A stretch of 63,991 bases of DNA, counting the filler, from Barthelona sp. PAP020 (lineage: Eukaryota): the NCBI GenBank assembly GCA_040182905.1. It is 39 parts of 39 records of this genome, joined end to end, with 100 filler letters (N's around TTAATTAATTAA, not from the genome) between each part and the next. Parts side by side here need not be neighbours in the genome. Positions count along the whole stretch, not along the records: positions 27,803 to 29,361 come from JARQWU010000944.1; 38 more parts are not named here. One strand, written 5' to 3'. Shown here in pieces: positions 1,891 to 55,258 of the stretch (within the stretch, counting starts at the first letter, position 1; each line of letters starts with the position of its first letter). The position numbers and the translations under genes are program-made. Below the pieces are notes generated by a model. That model did not search any database. It had not been told where the DNA came from and saw only the letters and a list, made by a program, of their open reading frames with translations.

Positions 1891-3063
1891 ATGAGGAAAA
1901 CAATTTACGATATGTTTCCTCCCAAAATTGATGAAAAGAGTGTGAGAGAAATTAAAAGTGTTTCTGATACTATGAATTACAGTCAATACTTACCGGACGG
2001 TAAATATTTGATGGTTCGTGACAATGAATTTTTTTATGTGATTGATATAGAAGCTGGGAAACTGGATCATACTTTAAAAGATCTTTTAAAGCACGTTTAT
2101 GACGTTGCCATTTCACTCGATGGCCAAAAGTTGGCAACATGTTCCACTGATAAGTCTGTTATTGTTTACAACCTTCCAGATTTTTCCATGTTGTGTACAT
2201 TTACTCTCGGCAAGATTGTTCGGACAATTTGTTTTTCACATTGTTCCAATTACTTATATATTGGTGATGATATTGGAAACCTTCAGAAGTGGGATATAAG
2301 TCATTGTAACTTTGTTTTGAATGAAAGAATTCACTCCTCTTTTATTTGGAGATTAGAACTTTCGTTTGATGACAAGTATCTTTTGATTGGTTGTAGTGAT
2401 ACTGTCAAGTTGGTCGATGCGGACAATTTCTGTGTTGTTCGTGAATTCAATCAAGGTCAGTATACGATTGATATCAAATTTCACCCAACTGAAAGAATGA
2501 TCGCTGTCAGTGATCAGTTGAAAGTAAAACTTTGGAACACAGACGATGGATCTCTAATTCATACATTTGAGATGGGTGATGAAGCTTTGTATCTTCATTT
2601 CCTTACACCCAGTGTTTTGCTTGTTATGTCTAGAGATGGCTATATTACATCATATAATGTGGAAACCTATCAGGAGATTCAAAAGGTGCACTGTGATTGT
2701 GAACCATATTTCTCTTCCTTTGCCATATCACCTGATAAGAAACAGTTGGTATGCGGAAAATGTAAAGGTGATATCATCAAAATCTATTCAATTGTGCCTG
2801 GCTATGATCCCTCACATGAATCGGAACTTATTCAATTGTCAAAGGATGGTGGCCATGTGTTGTCGAATCTTATTGATTTGAATATGGATACTCAAGTCAT
2901 AAGACAATTGGTAGTGGCAGGGATGTACGTGAATGAAGAGGAGTATAGCATGATCGTTGACACATGCTGGGATTTGATTGACGTCAATGAAATGAATGGT
3001 GGCAATATGCACTTATTTATGAATGAACAAAGTGATCATACTGATGATAAAGATGCTGATTAG
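1891..3063 (+). CDS. WD40-repeat protein of an expanded family with a CWDLIDxNExNGGNM C-terminal motif
   Basis: Several WD-like repeats (LATCSTDKSVIVYN, LQKWD, VKLWN); paralogs at 27812-28817 and 56448-56561. Confidence 0.85.
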   Translation: MRKTIYDMFPPKIDEKSVREIKSVSDTMNYSQYLPDGKYLMVRDNEFFYVIDIEAGKLDHTLKDLLKHVYDVAISLDGQKLATCSTDKSVIVYNLPDFSMLCTFTLGKIVRTICFSHCSNYLYIGDDIGNLQKWDISHCNFVLNERIHSSFIWRLELSFDDKYLLIGCSDTVKLVDADNFCVVREFNQGQYTIDIKFHPTERMIAVSDQLKVKLWNTDDGSLIHTFEMGDEALYLHFLTPSVLLVMSRDGYITSYNVETYQEIQKVHCDCEPYFSSFAISPDKKQLVCGKCKGDIIKIYSIVPGYDPSHESELIQLSKDGGHVLSNLIDLNMDTQVIRQLVVAGMYVNEEEYSMIVDTCWDLIDVNEMNGGNMHLFMNEQSDHTDDKDAD

Positions 3064-3776: not shown

Positions 3777-3849
3777 CGGTTCCGATGGGGCTCGAACCCA
3801 TGACCTTTGGATTAACAGTCCAATGCACTACCGACTGTGCTACGGAACC
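3777..3849 (-). tRNA. tRNA-Asn(GTT)
   Basis: GGTTCCG/CGGAACC acceptor stem, TTGGA-CTGTTAA-TCCAA anticodon arm, GGTTCGAG T-loop. Confidence 0.97.
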
Positions 3850-5737: not shown

Positions 5738-6679
5738 ATGAAAGTTTTATTAATTTATTACAGTACCACAGGAAATACCGATTTCATTGCGAAAGAAATC
5801 AGAAAAATCATGATAAAAAAAAATCATGAAGTTGACCTTTTCAATTTTAGGGCTGAAAATCGAAAAATTCTTCAAGGAAAATCCATTGATTATGAACTAT
5901 GGAAAAATTACGAATTATTTGGTTTTCTATCACCAACTTGGGGTTTTCAGCCTGTTGACTTTTTTGATAAATTTATTAAGTCAATTCCTGATGAAGTTTT
6001 CATTGAAAAATATTTCTTTAGTGTAGCGTTACATGCTGGAAACCCAGGTAGAACTAATAAAGACATCTTCTTTTCCATTATGAACAAAAATATGGGTTCT
6101 AAATTTGTAGGACAAACTCATGTTTTTGGACCTTCTAATTTTATTCAAGGAGGAAGACTGGAAGAAAATAGATATAAATATGTTTGGTCAAGGAAGCATT
6201 TCAGACATTTGCCTGATTTTGTGCAAAAAATATTTGAAAACATTGATAACAATAATATTATTGATGGAAAAATGGATGGTTTATTCAGTGGATTGTTTGG
6301 AAAAATTATTCCTAGAAGTCTGATGGGAGGTAGCATTAGATTTAGTCCTGAAACTTGTACTGGTTGTCAACGTTGTGTGAAATATTGTCCAACTCAAGCT
6401 ATTAAGTCAATTAAGAAAGACGAAAATGGTACTCTTATTATTGACTATGATGATAACATTTGCATTGGATGTAGTGGATGTGTGCAATATTGTCCCACTC
6501 ATTCTTTAAATATTGGTCGTTCTGTAGGCAAAGAGAGATATTATTTCAAGAAGAACATCGTTGTTGACACTGACTTCGATCCTTATTTTGTTAGAAATGA
6601 CCGTGCCAGTGAAATATTTGGCGATCTTGATACGAAAGAGGAAATTGCAAAGGAAAATGTTTCAGATGAAGAATTTTGA
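5738..6679 (+). CDS. EFR1-type flavodoxin / 2x[4Fe-4S] ferredoxin fusion
   Basis: N-terminal YYSTTGNT flavodoxin loop; CTGCQRCVKYCP and CIGCSGCVQYCP motifs. Confidence 0.9.
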   Translation: MKVLLIYYSTTGNTDFIAKEIRKIMIKKNHEVDLFNFRAENRKILQGKSIDYELWKNYELFGFLSPTWGFQPVDFFDKFIKSIPDEVFIEKYFFSVALHAGNPGRTNKDIFFSIMNKNMGSKFVGQTHVFGPSNFIQGGRLEENRYKYVWSRKHFRHLPDFVQKIFENIDNNNIIDGKMDGLFSGLFGKIIPRSLMGGSIRFSPETCTGCQRCVKYCPTQAIKSIKKDENGTLIIDYDDNICIGCSGCVQYCPTHSLNIGRSVGKERYYFKKNIVVDTDFDPYFVRNDRASEIFGDLDTKEEIAKENVSDEEF

Positions 6680-9337: not shown

Positions 9338-9412
9338 GCGTCTTTAGCTCAGTTGGTAGTTAGCGTTAGACTGAAGATCTAAAGGTCCCGAGTTCAATCC
9401 TCGGAAGACGCA
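9338..9412 (+). tRNA. tRNA-Phe(GAA)
   Basis: GCGTCTT/AAGACGC acceptor stem, TTAGA-CTGAAGA-TCTAA anticodon arm, followed by a T5 terminator. Confidence 0.96.
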
Positions 9413-13956: not shown

Positions 13957-14132
13957 TTCACGTTAGGTACAAGAAAAGGTATACGAAAGCTTTTATATAC
14001 GGTGTGTTATTGAAATGAGAAGTTGGGAAAGCCTTGAATTTGAATCCTGGCTGTTTGAAATGACTTAGTTCTGATTGAAAGATTGAACGATATTGAATCC
14101 CTAAAAAAAAAGAAATGACTTCAATAACTTTG
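13957..14132 (+). repeat. Module C3 copy
   Basis: TTCACGTTAGGTACAAGAAAAGGTATACG...GAATCCCTAAAA; matches 17682-17827 and 29263-29361. Confidence 0.9.
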
Positions 14133-18012: not shown

Positions 18013-18085
18013 TGGACTATCAGGGCGTCGATCCCCGTGCCTCCCGCATGCTAAGCGGGTGCTCTACCAGGTGAGCTAATAGCCC
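18013..18085 (-). tRNA. tRNA-Ala(AGC)
   Basis: G3:U70 pair, CCCGC-TTAGCAT-GCGGG anticodon arm, GATCGA T-loop as in eukaryotic tRNA-Ala, T-run terminator. Confidence 0.97.
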
Positions 18086-27392: not shown

Positions 27393-27811
27393 TCATATGT
27401 AAATTTATTTTTTTTATTTTTTAAAAGAATTCAGTCAATTTCATGAATTTCTGTTCAATTTTTTTTATTTTTTGAAATATTTGCACAATTTGATTGAATA
27501 CAGTAAGCTTTTTGATTAATTGATTTTGAAATGTTTGGAAGAAAGACACCCAAGAAATCTCAAAGAGAATCCATTAAGAATTCCATTTTGATGAAAAAAA
27601 AAAAAAAAAAAAAAAACAGCAACTTTTATTCCAAACTACTCAAAAACAAATTTAAAAATCGAACACATCCTCTTTATTGACTTCAGGTTCTATTTTTTCA
27701 GANNNNNNNNNNNNNNNNNNNNNNNNNNNNNNNNNNNNNNNNNNNNTTAATTAATTAANNNNNNNNNNNNNNNNNNNNNNNNNNNNNNNNNNNNNNNNNN
27801 NNTTTCCAGAT

Positions 27812-28817
27812 TTAAAATTTTCTTTCTTGTGGGATTATTAGCTTTATATGCAGGAGTATTTTGGTTAGTTCTTCCTTTGCGTCTTCTTTCGGTGAAATTT
27901 TTGTTGTTGCCAAATTAATTTTATATCCAACTCTTTTTTTTATCAAATGAAATGTTGAAATTGACAGGAAATGAGTCACAATCACGATGAACTTTTTGAA
28001 TCTCCTGAAAGCTACTAATATCAAAAGAAGTAAATATAACCATTACTTGACATAACCATACCAATAGGTGTCAAGAAATGAAGTGCCCACACTTCACCAC
28101 CAATATTGAATGTGTGAAGAAGTAATCCATCACCCGTATTTCAGAACTTCAATTTGTTTGAACAATCACCAACCGCAACTATTGGTCCATTAGGATGGAA
28201 TTCAACAGCTTTAACTTCATGTTCATGATTGAAAACACAAATTACAGACAAGCTCTCTGATCATATCAATTTAACAGTATAATCATTGCAGTTAAGCCAT
28301 TTTGAATGTGACGATAATTGAATCTCCCAAATACTTTGGGAATGAATCTTTTTGTTTTGAACAACTTCAAGACTATCCAAGTTCCATTTGTGAAGATACC
28401 CATTGTTGTTTATTGAATATAAAAACGAAGAACAATGCGAAAAACAAGCCCCAAAAAGAAAAATGTCATAATACAAAACATCCAAATAATAAAAATCATG
28501 TTTAAGGTCATAAGTACAAATGGAATAATCATTGGAACAAGTTGCTAAATATTTTCCATCCGATGAAATAGCAACACATACACAAAGTCAGTATACTCTC
28601 GCAAAATATGCTTCAGTTGATGTGTTTCTGTTTCAAAAACATACGCTGTTTTCATTGAATAAATGACAAAATGCTTCCCATTTGGTGAATATTTACAATC
28701 ATAAATATAATTGTTAATTGCTCCTTCAATTGCTGTTACATTCTTTTTATCAATTTTTAAAGGGAGATTATTTCTGATTTTCATCATCAAGACCTTTTTT
28801 TTTGTTTCACTGTACAT
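27812..28817 (-). pseudogene. WD40 pseudogene, paralog of 1891-3063
   Basis: Collinear similarity (KIHSQSIWEIQLS; EFHP; KF*NTGDGLLLHTF; LHFLTP; FQEIQKVH) broken by stops and frameshifts. Confidence 0.85.
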
Positions 28818-29153
28818 GCAAAAAGATCTTTTAAAAATATTTTCTTTTTTTTGAAATTATTTGTAAATTCTTATATAGTTTAATTTCAGTTTTTAAAAAA
28901 TTGTAATGTGTTCATGAAGGAGTAATGTTAGTATTATAATTTAAATTATTAATAATGTTTGAGATATTTAGTTGTGTATCCGTTTTTATGTTCAAATATT
29001 TGATGTTTTGATGCTAAGAGAATTTTGATATTTAAAATATATGAAATCTTTTTATTTTTTGATAAAATTTGAATGACTGTAAAAAAATTCCATACAAAAA
29101 AAATTCATTTAATTTCCTTTTTTAAAATAAAAAGGTATTTGTTTTCTCCTGTA

Positions 29154-29244
29154 ACCAACGTGGTGTAATTAGTAGCACACTTGTCGTTTATTGAATTCAT
29201 TGCTTCGTTATTGAGGGGTCCTCGTGCAATTCGAGGCGTTGGTA
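29154..29244 (+). ncRNA. Atypical tRNA-like gene (91 nt), anticodon undetermined
   Basis: Perfect acceptor stem ACCAACG/CGTTGGT+A, D stem GTGT/GCAC, T stem CCTCG/CGAGG and T8 terminator; 36-nt irregular anticodon region. Confidence 0.75.
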
Positions 29245-29250
29245 TTTTTT

Positions 29251-29361
29251 TTCACTCGACATTTCACGTTAGGTACAAGAAAAGGTATACGAAAGCTTTT
29301 ATATACGGTGTGTTATTGAAATGAGTAGTTGGGAAAGCCTTGAATTTGAATCCTGGCTGTT
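29251..29361 (+). repeat. TTCACTCGACA stub plus module C3, directly after the tRNA-like gene
   Basis: Near-identical to the C4' head (40673) and to C3 (13957). Confidence 0.9.
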
Positions 29362-29778: not shown

Positions 29779-31017
29779 TTATTGCAAAGATATAGAATTA
29801 ACCCCTCTGGGAATCATACCACCAGAGTAATGACCACGTTTCTTTTTGGTTTTGGCTGCTTTCCAAGATTTTCCTCGTGTAGGTCTCATTTCCATTTCAG
29901 CTCTTTTATCAAATTCTGAAATCTTGTGGTCCCGTCTGAAATGATGCGTAAAATTGACGTCGTCAACATTGAATCTTGTCCTAAATTGTCCTGGTGCACG
30001 TTTTTTGTTGGGATTATATTTATTTGCTCTATCATCATCATTATGTCTATCATTAGCTTCTTTATTGAAGTTTTTCTTCTCAGACTCACTCTCTGATTCA
30101 CTCTCTGATTCTTCCTTTTCAGGCTCACTTTCAGAATCATCTTTTTCTTCTTTCTTCTCTTCTTCTTTTTCAGATTCGCTCTCAGATTCAGACTCAGATT
30201 CATTTTCGGACTCGGATTCAGATTCAGATTCAGATTCTTCCTTCTCTTCTTCCTTTTCAGATTCGCTTTCGGATTCGGATTCGGACTCAGACTCAGACTC
30301 TTCCTTTTCTTCTTCCTTTTCTGATTCACTTTCACTTTCGGATTCAGATGCAGACTCTTCCTTCTCTTCCTCCTTTTCTGATTCACTTTCGGATTCAGAC
30401 TCAGATTCAGACTCAGATTCTTCCTTCTCAGATTCAGACTCAGATTCTTCCTTCTCAGATTCAGACTCAGATTCTTCCTTCTCGGATTCCTTCTCTTCTT
30501 CCTTTTCTGATTCACTTTCACTTTCGGATTCGGACTCTGATTCAGATTCAGATTCAGATTCAGACTCTTCCTTCTTTTCAGATTCACTTTCGGATTCAGA
30601 CTCAGACTCAGATTCTTCCTTCTCGGATTCCTCAGATTCAGACTCTTCCTTTTCTTCTTCCTTTTCAGATTCACTTTCAGACTCAGATTCGGATTCAGAC
30701 TCTTCCTTCTCTTCCTCCTTTTCAGATTCACTTTCGGATTCAGACTCAGACTCAGATTCTTCCTTCTCGGATTCCTTCTCAGATTCATTTTCGGATTCTG
30801 ATTCTGATTCTGATTCTGATTCAGATTCAGACTCTTCCTTTTCTTCTTCCTTTTCAGATTCACTTTCAGACTCAGATTCGGATTCAGACTCTTCCTTCTC
30901 TTCTTCCTTTTCTGATTCACTTTCGGACTCGGATTCAGACTCAGATTCAGATTCAGATTCAGATTCAGATTCTTCCTTTTCTTCTTCCTTTTCACTTTCA
31001 GATTCAGACTCGGACTC
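29779..31017 (-). CDS. NOLC1: Nopp140/Srp40 nucleolar phosphoprotein (5' partial); this frame is missing from the ORF track
   Basis: (SE)n/EKEEEKEE repeats ending in [33 protein letters not shown], the SRP40 C-terminal domain. Confidence 0.9.
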
Positions 31018-31119
31018 ANNNNNNNNNNNNNNNNNNNNNNNNNNNNNNNNNNNNNNNNNNNNTTAATTAATTAANNNNNNNNNNNNNNNNNNNNNNNNNN
31101 NNNNNNNNNNNNNNNNNNG

Positions 31120-39548: not shown

Positions 39549-39621
39549 CTCCGATACCGGGATTCGAACCCGGTTCTGCGGGGTGAAAACCCACTATCCT
39601 AACCAAGTAGACTATATCGGA
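39549..39621 (-). tRNA. tRNA-Glu(TTC)
   Basis: TCCGATA/TATCGGA acceptor stem, GTGGG-TTTTCAC-CCCGC anticodon arm, GGTTCGAATCC. Confidence 0.96.
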
Positions 39622-55186: not shown

Positions 55187-55258
55187 CTCTCTCGCGGGGA
55201 ATCGAACCCCGGTCCCAAGCGTGACAGGCTTGAATGATGACCACTACACTACGAAAGA
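55187..55258 (-). tRNA. tRNA-Asp(GTC)
   Basis: TCTTTCG/CGAGAGA acceptor stem, CAAGC-CTGTCAC-GCTTG anticodon arm, GGTTCGATTCC. Confidence 0.96.

What the first reader, a model, noticed from the sequence alone, without database searches (positions are those of the whole stretch)
29154..29244. Atypical tRNA-like gene with intact acceptor/D/T stems but a non-canonical elbow and anticodon arm
Seen: perfect 7-bp acceptor stem (A1-U72), 5-bp T stem and T8 terminator. The D loop has AG instead of GG, the T loop is TGCAATT instead of TTCRA, and the anticodon region is 36 nt instead of 17. Removing a canonical 37/38 intron (19 nt) would give anticodon TTT with G33 and a weak G-U-rich stem, which is unconvincing. 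It lacks the extra B box but is followed immediately by TTCA modules. Inference: preserved stems plus changes at both partners of the 18/55 tertiary contact suggest a selected non-decoding tRNA-like Pol III RNA rather than random decay.
Basis: partly seen in the sequence, partly recalled or inferred. Interest (0 to 1): 0.7.

Follow-up and report, generated by a model that had tools for sequence, protein, structure and literature searches.

The report
Protist tRNA with broken anticodon arm
An anaerobic single-celled eukaryote carries a tRNA-shaped gene whose outer frame is perfect and uses a rare swapped corner contact (A18 with G55), but whose intron-bearing anticodon arm is defective, so it likely makes a tRNA mimic that does not read codons, though a fading pseudogene is not excluded.

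Summary
29154-29244 folds as a tRNA core (7-bp acceptor, 4-bp D stem, 5-bp T stem, T8 terminator); 0 of 200 shuffles give such a core. The host is a barthelonid-like metamonad. The odd elbow is a matched A18/G55 swap that also occurs in ordinary-looking phage and bacterial tRNAs. It shows selection for the L-shape, but not loss of decoding. The 36-nt arm carries the marks of a canonical 37/38 intron (C32, A37, A38, C32:G anticodon-intron pair; about 5e-4 in shuffles). Splicing would give a Lys(UUU)-like loop with G33 on a stem that does not form on its own (+2.3 kcal/mol), and no other single splice rescues it. Best reading: a tRNA-derived, likely Pol III RNA kept for its shape and not for decoding (0.45). 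Rivals: recent pseudogene (0.27), weak spliced tRNA-Lys (0.2). No homologue was found, and expression could not be tested, so function is inferred. New variant of a known kind.

The parts
29154..29244 (+). tRNA-shaped gene (91 nt, no encoded CCA): acceptor, D and T arms intact, A1-U72, A73
29161..29178 (+). D arm / internal A box; A18 at 29171 (normally G), G19 at 29172
   Evidence: same D arm in ordinary A18/G55 tRNA-Gln of L011/L013
29180..29215 (+). 36-nt anticodon region: C32 29185, G33 29186, UUU 29187-29189, A37 29190, A38 29210; stem 27-31/39-43 has 2 Watson-Crick pairs, 2 G-U and 1 U-U
29191..29209 (+). predicted 19-nt intron at the canonical 37/38 site; G at 29207 can pair with C32 (anticodon-intron pair), C at 29206 with G33
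   Evidence: joint hallmarks 5e-4 in 200,000 shuffles of the arm; splicing itself untested
29220..29236 (+). T arm / variant internal B box (GTGCAATTC); G55 at 29226 (normally U)
29245..29252 (+). T8 run, Pol III terminator-like
29251..29361 (+). multicopy TTCA-headed repeat modules, 98-100% identical to stretches downstream of tRNA-Ala and tRNA-Phe and at 13957; run to the contig end
27933..28575 (-). context: broken WD40 gene (2 in-frame stops in the main hit and a frameshift), 43% identical to the ORF at 1891-3063; shows the contig is host nuclear DNA

Best explanation
This is a tRNA-derived gene with an intact acceptor/D/T frame and a matched A18-G55 corner, which is likely transcribed by Pol III and end-processed like a tRNA but is predicted not to decode, and so would act as a tRNA-shaped mimic. 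Shown: the three stems, the core tertiary partners, the A18/G55 pair, the terminator-like T8, the canonical-position intron marks, and G33 on an unstable anticodon stem. Inferred: Pol III reads it from its own A box and variant B box; RNase P, RNase Z and the CCA enzyme treat it as tRNA because they read the elbow and acceptor; it descends from an intron-containing Lys(UUU)-type tRNA. Whether spliced (G33 loop, weak stem) or left unspliced (long bulged stem, favoured by about 9 kcal/mol in the energy model), it would not present a normal anticodon loop. What is kept under selection would be the L-shaped, possibly lysylated, body, used by a partner outside the decoding site, as trypanosome sRNA-85 or the non-proteogenic tRNA-Gly of staphylococci are. 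The partner is not identified.
For: Departures cluster in the anticodon arm: none in the 32 stem nt of the other three arms against 2-4 of 17 in the spliced arm (Fisher p 0.12, 0.037 or 0.011 for 2, 3 or 4; post hoc). The WD40 gene on the same contig is decaying. A18/G55 is a real covarying pair: among 28 distinct tRNAs not matched by my query, 13 are G18/U55, 15 are non-G18 with non-U55, and none is discordant (rows not independent). The spliced hairpin is +2.3 kcal/mol with 2 Watson-Crick pairs, against -0.3 to -8.5 and 4-5 Watson-Crick pairs for the 5 ordinary window tRNAs. No single deletion of 17-20 nt gives a canonical arm. The unspliced minimum-energy fold is a long bulged anticodon stem (-24.2 against -15.2 kcal/mol for the canonical pre-tRNA register), the shape described for sRNA-85 (PMC2800229 section 22). 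Repeat modules begin 27 nt after its own variant B box, within the 16-47 nt seen after the last B box of the 5 ordinary genes, an indirect hint that TFIIIC binds it. 10 of 24 metagenome hits with the same D arm and G55 also have odd anticodon loops.
Against: No homologue was found, so there is no covariation on this gene itself. G55 alters a conserved B-box base and the external B box of the other 5 genes is absent, so transcription may be weak or nil. The intron marks argue that it is or was spliced as a real tRNA. An A18/G55 Lys(UUU) tRNA with a weak stem (3 Watson-Crick pairs, -1.0 kcal/mol) exists in L005. The clustering test is not significant if only 2 arm changes are counted. The long-stem fold has low pair probabilities (about 0.5) and uses up the variable loop. 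An imperfect 10-11-nt direct repeat inside the arm (p 0.025) fits a local duplication accident.
Confidence: 0.45

Rival explanations
1. Recent pseudogene: a copy of a once-functional intron-containing A18/G55 tRNA whose anticodon arm was damaged (for example by local duplication) and whose external B box was deleted; it is silent or degraded.
For: It lies on a 1.6-kb repeat-ended contig beside a broken WD40 gene. The external B box is missing and the internal B box is variant. There is a direct repeat in the arm, p 0.025. In yeast, anticodon-stem defects make intron-containing pre-tRNAs accumulate and decay (PMC6913130 abstract).
Against: 16 of 16 pairs in the acceptor, D and T stems and all core tertiary partners are intact. 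No single insertion explains the arm, because removing any 17-20-nt block leaves a poor stem. Even on this reading the A18/G55 pair needs a selected ancestor.
Confidence: 0.27
2. Atypical but working intron-containing tRNA-Lys(UUU): spliced at 37/38, charged with lysine, and decoding AAA weakly despite G33 and a wobble-rich stem.
For: C32, A37, A38, the C32:G(-3) pair and at least 4 stem pairs occur together in 5e-4 of arm shuffles and match the geometry in PMC10539383 (passages). The spliced loop differs from a standard Lys(UUU) loop only at 33 (compare L005). A18/G55 occurs in ordinary tRNAs, including one with a predicted 37/38 intron and A1-U72 (L060).
Against: G33 removes the U-turn base (established knowledge, recalled). 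The stem is +2.3 kcal/mol. Only 2 of the 4 anticodon-intron pairs form. AAA is the second commonest codon (61 per 1000 in 14 ORFs), so a weak decoder cannot be the main one. G18 and U55 single changes kill a yeast suppressor tRNA (PMC4117946 passages; the double change is not described in those passages).
Confidence: 0.2
3. tRNA-Thr(CGU) with a non-canonical intron between 32 and 33, as ARAGORN calls it.
For: ARAGORN score 100.6; this splice restores U33.
Against: Same unstable stem (+2.3 kcal/mol), U37 in place of a purine, no bulge-helix-bulge at that site in the folds, and the score is at the threshold.
Confidence: 0.04
4. DNA-level element only: an A/B-box platform that recruits TFIIIC as a promoter for a neighbouring small RNA or as a landing site for the repeats, with no role for the RNA.
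For: Repeat modules sit at the usual distance from its B box.
Against: A DNA element would not need paired stems or a compensated elbow. No known small RNA scores near its gathering threshold on this contig.
Confidence: 0.04

Closest known systems
Trypanosomatid tRNA-like SRP partner sRNA-85 / sRNA-76 (PMC2800229, section 22 and passages read)
   Same: tRNA-shaped nuclear RNA of a protist, longer than a tRNA; described as uncharged with a longer, bulged anticodon stem, which is the predicted unspliced fold here.
   Different: No sequence comparison was possible. No 7SL RNA is in the window and no SRP association or loss of SRP9/14 was tested. This gene has canonical intron marks.
Eukaryotic intron-containing tRNA genes spliced at 37/38 by TSEN (PMC10539383 passages)
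   Same: C32:G anticodon-intron pair, 3-nt 3' bulge ending in A38, oligo-T terminator, no encoded CCA.
   Different: G33, only 2 anticodon-intron pairs, U31-U39 with two G-U pairs in the stem, A18/G55 elbow, variant B box.
A18/G55 tRNAs of phages, tRNA arrays and small-genome prokaryotes (L003/L004/L016, L007/L011/L013/L024, L005, L046, L060; earlier scan notes)
   Same: Same D arm and the same matched A18/G55 elbow.
   Different: Those mostly have sound anticodon arms and lie in prokaryotic or viral DNA; this one is on a eukaryotic nuclear contig, where position 55 is also promoter DNA.
Staphylococcal non-proteogenic tRNA-Gly NP1-3 (PMC7826273 passages)
   Same: TGC in place of TTC in the T loop; tRNA diverted from translation.
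   Different: Those keep a normal anticodon arm, are charged, and serve Fem transferases. No such pathway was shown here.

Membership tests
Canonical eukaryotic decoding tRNA | 7-bp acceptor, 4-bp D stem, 5-bp T stem with U8, A14, R15-Y48, G19-C56, U54-A58, G53-C61 | tested here: met
Canonical eukaryotic decoding tRNA | G18 and U55 | tested here: not met
   A18/G55; a natural covariant elsewhere
Canonical eukaryotic decoding tRNA | stable 5-bp anticodon stem with a 7-nt loop and U33 after splicing | tested here: not met
   no single 17-20-nt deletion gives it; G33 and +2.3 kcal/mol
Canonical eukaryotic decoding tRNA | expressed, CCA-added, aminoacylated, ribosome-bound | not testable with these tools
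   no reads were available to lay on the locus
TSEN substrate (37/38 intron) | Y32, R37, A38 and the C32:G(-3) anticodon-intron pair at ruler distance | tested here: met
   geometry from PMC10539383
TSEN substrate (37/38 intron) | 4-bp anticodon-intron helix stacked on a stable anticodon stem | tested here: inconclusive
   2 of 4 pairs form; this register is 9 kcal/mol above the minimum-energy fold
Eukaryotic initiator tRNA-Met | A1-U72, CAU anticodon, three G-C pairs in the anticodon stem, A54 and A60 (recalled) | tested here: not met
   only A1-U72 is met
tRNA-Sec | 6-bp D stem, long variable arm, UCA in a 7-nt loop (recalled) | tested here: not met
   4-bp D stem; no 5-bp hairpin closes a 7-nt loop in the arm; no Rfam hit
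Trypanosomatid sRNA-85/76 type | tRNA-like body with a long bulged anticodon stem | tested here: inconclusive
   the minimum-energy fold has it, but pair probabilities are about 0.5
Trypanosomatid sRNA-85/76 type | base-pairs with 7SL RNA in an SRP lacking SRP9/14; uncharged | not testable with these tools
   no whole genome is held; no SRP RNA found in the window
tRNA-derived SINE | multicopy tRNA-like head read through into a body and A tail | tested here: not met
   head is single-copy in the window and T8 follows it directly; rest of genome not seen

The most novel reading that the evidence does not exclude
A metamonad has independently evolved a dedicated non-decoding tRNA mimic from an intron-containing tRNA-Lys. 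Its A18-G55 elbow, seen here only in prokaryotic, viral and unassigned metagenome DNA, keeps the L-shape, while a long bulged arm replaces the anticodon. It works as a ribosome- or SRP-bound partner RNA like trypanosome sRNA-85.
Probability: 0.12. Interest if true: 0.78.

Novelty: new variant of a known kind. Interest (0 to 1): 0.42.

Why it matters
If expressed, it would be a nuclear eukaryotic RNA built on the A18-G55 elbow, in a system where base 55 is also Pol III promoter DNA. It would also add a second protist lineage with a non-decoding tRNA-like RNA. It is invisible to Rfam and to ARAGORN without introns, so similar genes may be missed in protist genomes. If it is a pseudogene, it still implies a selected A18/G55 ancestor in or entering this lineage. 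The evidence is one locus with no expression data, which caps the interest.

Tried and rejected
No whole genome is held for the window, so the tRNA gene set, SRP RNA and other copies could not be checked. Sequencing runs: none was listed; this is no evidence on expression. Homologue searches found no orthologue: metagenome pattern, 24 loci; viral patterns, 2, 2, 21 and 1 loci; prokaryote genomes, 7 loci of which 1 is a real tRNA; blastn against phages and plasmids, only 22-41-nt chance matches at E 3-9. None of these is a collection of protist genomes. Viral controls: A18/U55 gave 1 locus, a real tRNA-Trp (L027), so the covariation is not absolute. G18/G55 gave 16 loci, of which 0 is a G18/G55 tRNA: 11 are tRNA-Trp genes matched through a downstream word and 5 are coding repeats or chance. 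Rejected: initiator Met, Sec and SINE head (membership table); stop-codon reassignment (all three stops end ORFs: TAA 7, TGA 6, TAG 1 of 14); two introns (9-10 nt each would be too short, reasoning only); a neighbouring snRNA; further atypical tRNA-like genes in the window (next hit 7.6 bits). Literature: Barthelona + tRNA gave 1 irrelevant paper. A18/G55 searches gave 0 papers or listings with no title on this swap. The barthelonid/Skoliomonas genome paper PMC11316075 has 0 occurrences of 'tRNA' in its main text (supplements not read, and they may hold tRNA annotations). I recall selection experiments on E. coli suppressor tRNAs with purine pairs at 18/55; the paper I tried is not held, so this is recall only. 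The scan's own notes hold nothing for this genome or sequence.

Full report
Setting. The window is 39 pieces of 1.2-1.7 kb joined by N-spacers, mostly 25-35% GC, with long ORFs in the standard code. Its CCT4 is identical to a EukProt protein, and among named hits Barthelona sp. PCE scores near the top (60% identity, third in the list). In a quick tree of 26 CCT4 proteins chosen from the 120 listed, it groups with Barthelona PCE (SH-aLRT 94) and the two TZLM isolates (99) (long branches, sparse protist sampling). I read the host as a barthelonid-like metamonad. The finding lies on piece 27803-29361, which also carries a broken WD40 paralogue of a host gene and repeats shared with host tRNA loci, so it is host nuclear DNA.

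Observation. There is a 7-bp Watson-Crick acceptor with A1-U72 and A73, a 4-bp D stem, and a 5-bp Watson-Crick T stem. The elbow has A18 for G18 and G55 for U55. The anticodon region is 36 nt, and T8 follows the gene. The other core contacts (U8-A14, A15-U48, G19-C56, U54-A58, G53-C61) are all kept. A descriptor of this core matched 0 times in 200 shuffles. A model built from 26 tRNAs gave 38.1 bits, E 1.7e-9 (biased towards this D arm). Rfam misses it. ARAGORN reports it only with introns on, at score 100.6.

The elbow. A pattern of this D arm plus G55 found 24 metagenome loci. In 11 of 24, ARAGORN calls an ordinary tRNA at the match (7 distinct sequences: Gln, Lys, His, Gly). 10 of 24 are cloverleaves with odd anticodon loops or acceptors, and 3 of 24 look like chance. 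Among 28 distinct tRNAs in my loci and the window that the query did not select, 13 are G18/U55, 15 have A or C at 18 with G or A at 55, and none is discordant. Two rows without a readable T loop were dropped, and the 15 come from a few related arrays, so the p-value overstates independence. One A18/U55 tRNA-Trp exists (L027). So A18/G55 is a natural compensated pair. It argues for selection on the L-shape, but tRNAs with sound anticodon arms use it, so it does not argue against decoding. Earlier scan notes report the same swap in phage, small-genome bacterial and archaeal tRNAs; these are unchecked AI notes that my own counts agree with. I found no paper on it. TGC T loops are described for staphylococcal non-proteogenic tRNA-Gly (PMC7826273 passages).

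The anticodon arm. No single deletion of 17-20 nt yields a 5-bp stem with a normal loop. At the fixed canonical positions, however, the arm has C32, A37, A38, a G three bases before the 3' splice site that can pair with C32, and four possible stem pairs. These occur together in 5e-4 of 200,000 shuffles, and without the stem condition in 6e-3 (about twice that if both variable-loop lengths are allowed). This is the geometry of the human TSEN substrate (PMC10539383 passages; PMC10275265 passage). The gene therefore most likely descends from an intron-containing tRNA. Splicing would give anticodon UUU with G33 on a stem of 2 Watson-Crick pairs, 2 G-U and 1 U-U, at +2.3 kcal/mol against -0.3 to -8.5 for the five ordinary tRNAs. 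Unspliced, the energy model prefers a long bulged stem (-24.2 against -15.2 kcal/mol), though with pair probabilities near 0.5. An imperfect direct repeat of 10-11 nt lies in the arm (p 0.025). The departures sit in this arm and not in the 32 stem bases of the other arms (Fisher p 0.011-0.12 by how many changes are counted).

Promoter and flanks. All 5 ordinary tRNA genes have an external B box 28-31 nt after the gene; this one has none, and G55 also changes its internal B box. That counts against strong expression. Multicopy TTCA-headed modules begin 16-47 nt after the last B box in the 5 ordinary genes, and 27 nt after the variant internal box here. In Dictyostelium, TRE3 elements insert downstream of the internal or external B box (PMC5911963 passages). 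By analogy the variant box may be occupied by TFIIIC, but a deletion of the spacer would give the same picture, and 3 of the 12 module heads listed have no tRNA gene in view upstream.

Mechanism. Most likely (0.45) the gene makes a Pol III RNA that is trimmed and CCA-added through its intact elbow and acceptor but cannot present a normal anticodon, and is kept for its shape. It would work like trypanosome sRNA-85, described as uncharged with a longer bulged anticodon stem (PMC2800229 section 22; also passages of PMC9283944 and PMC8230904), or like a non-ribosomal aminoacyl donor. It is not shown to belong to either family. Rivals are a recent pseudogene (0.27; PMC6913130 abstract, shows that such stems trigger pre-tRNA decay in yeast), a weak spliced tRNA-Lys (0.2), ARAGORN's Thr call (0.04) and a DNA-only element (0.04). 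Sequence anatomy and the statistics above are shown; transcription, processing, splicing, charging and any partner are inferred.

Limits and verdict. No orthologue was found in the collections searched, none of which is a collection of protist genomes, and neither the whole genome nor reads were available. The feature is real and odd. It fails the test for a canonical decoding tRNA on the anticodon arm, and it is a new variant of a known kind. Interest 0.42.

Noticed in passing
window: downstream of tRNA-Asn 3777-3849(-), Phe 9338-9412(+), Ala 18013-18085(-), Glu 39549-39621(-), Asp 55187-55258(-): 5 of 5 ordinary tRNA genes carry an external B box (GATCGAGTY) 28-31 nt after the gene, followed 16-47 nt later by nested multicopy TTCA-headed modules, some ending in A runs. 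This resembles the Dictyostelium external B box and TRE3 targeting. PMC5911963 (passage) says downstream insertion is found only in dictyostelids, so a metamonad case may be new and may deserve its own follow-up.
   Followed up: partly
L023:546-623 (-): tRNA-like gene with the same D arm, A18/G55 and a 13-nt anticodon loop with a GAAA hairpin, lying between an intron-containing tRNA-Tyr and two eukaryote-type tRNA-Gly in a 30% GC contig, possibly from a giant virus (origin is my inference). The closest architectural analogue found.
   Followed up: partly
L003/L004/L016 and L007/L011/L013/L024/L046: tRNA arrays in which every ARAGORN-called tRNA examined has A or C at 18 with G or A at 55.
   Followed up: partly
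L060:137-223 (-); G001:C1:35768-35856: A18/G55 tRNA with A1-U72 and a predicted 15-nt 37/38 intron giving Arg(CCU), at the end of a tailed-virus provirus record; possibly the host attachment-site tRNA.
   Followed up: partly
L001/L010/L021, L008/L012/L018/L022, L017/L020: Three further groups of A18/G55 cloverleaves with odd anticodon loops (G33; 8-nt; 13-nt) in metagenome contigs.
   Followed up: no
window 27933-28575 (-): Broken WD40 gene, paralogue of 1891-3063.
   Followed up: yes
window 5738-6679 (+): Flavodoxin plus 4Fe-4S ferredoxin fusion protein, of a kind common in anaerobic bacteria (recalled); possible lateral transfer.
   Followed up: no
window 30049-31018 (-): Long low-complexity Ser/Asp/Glu repeat coding stretch with strong base skew.
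   Followed up: no
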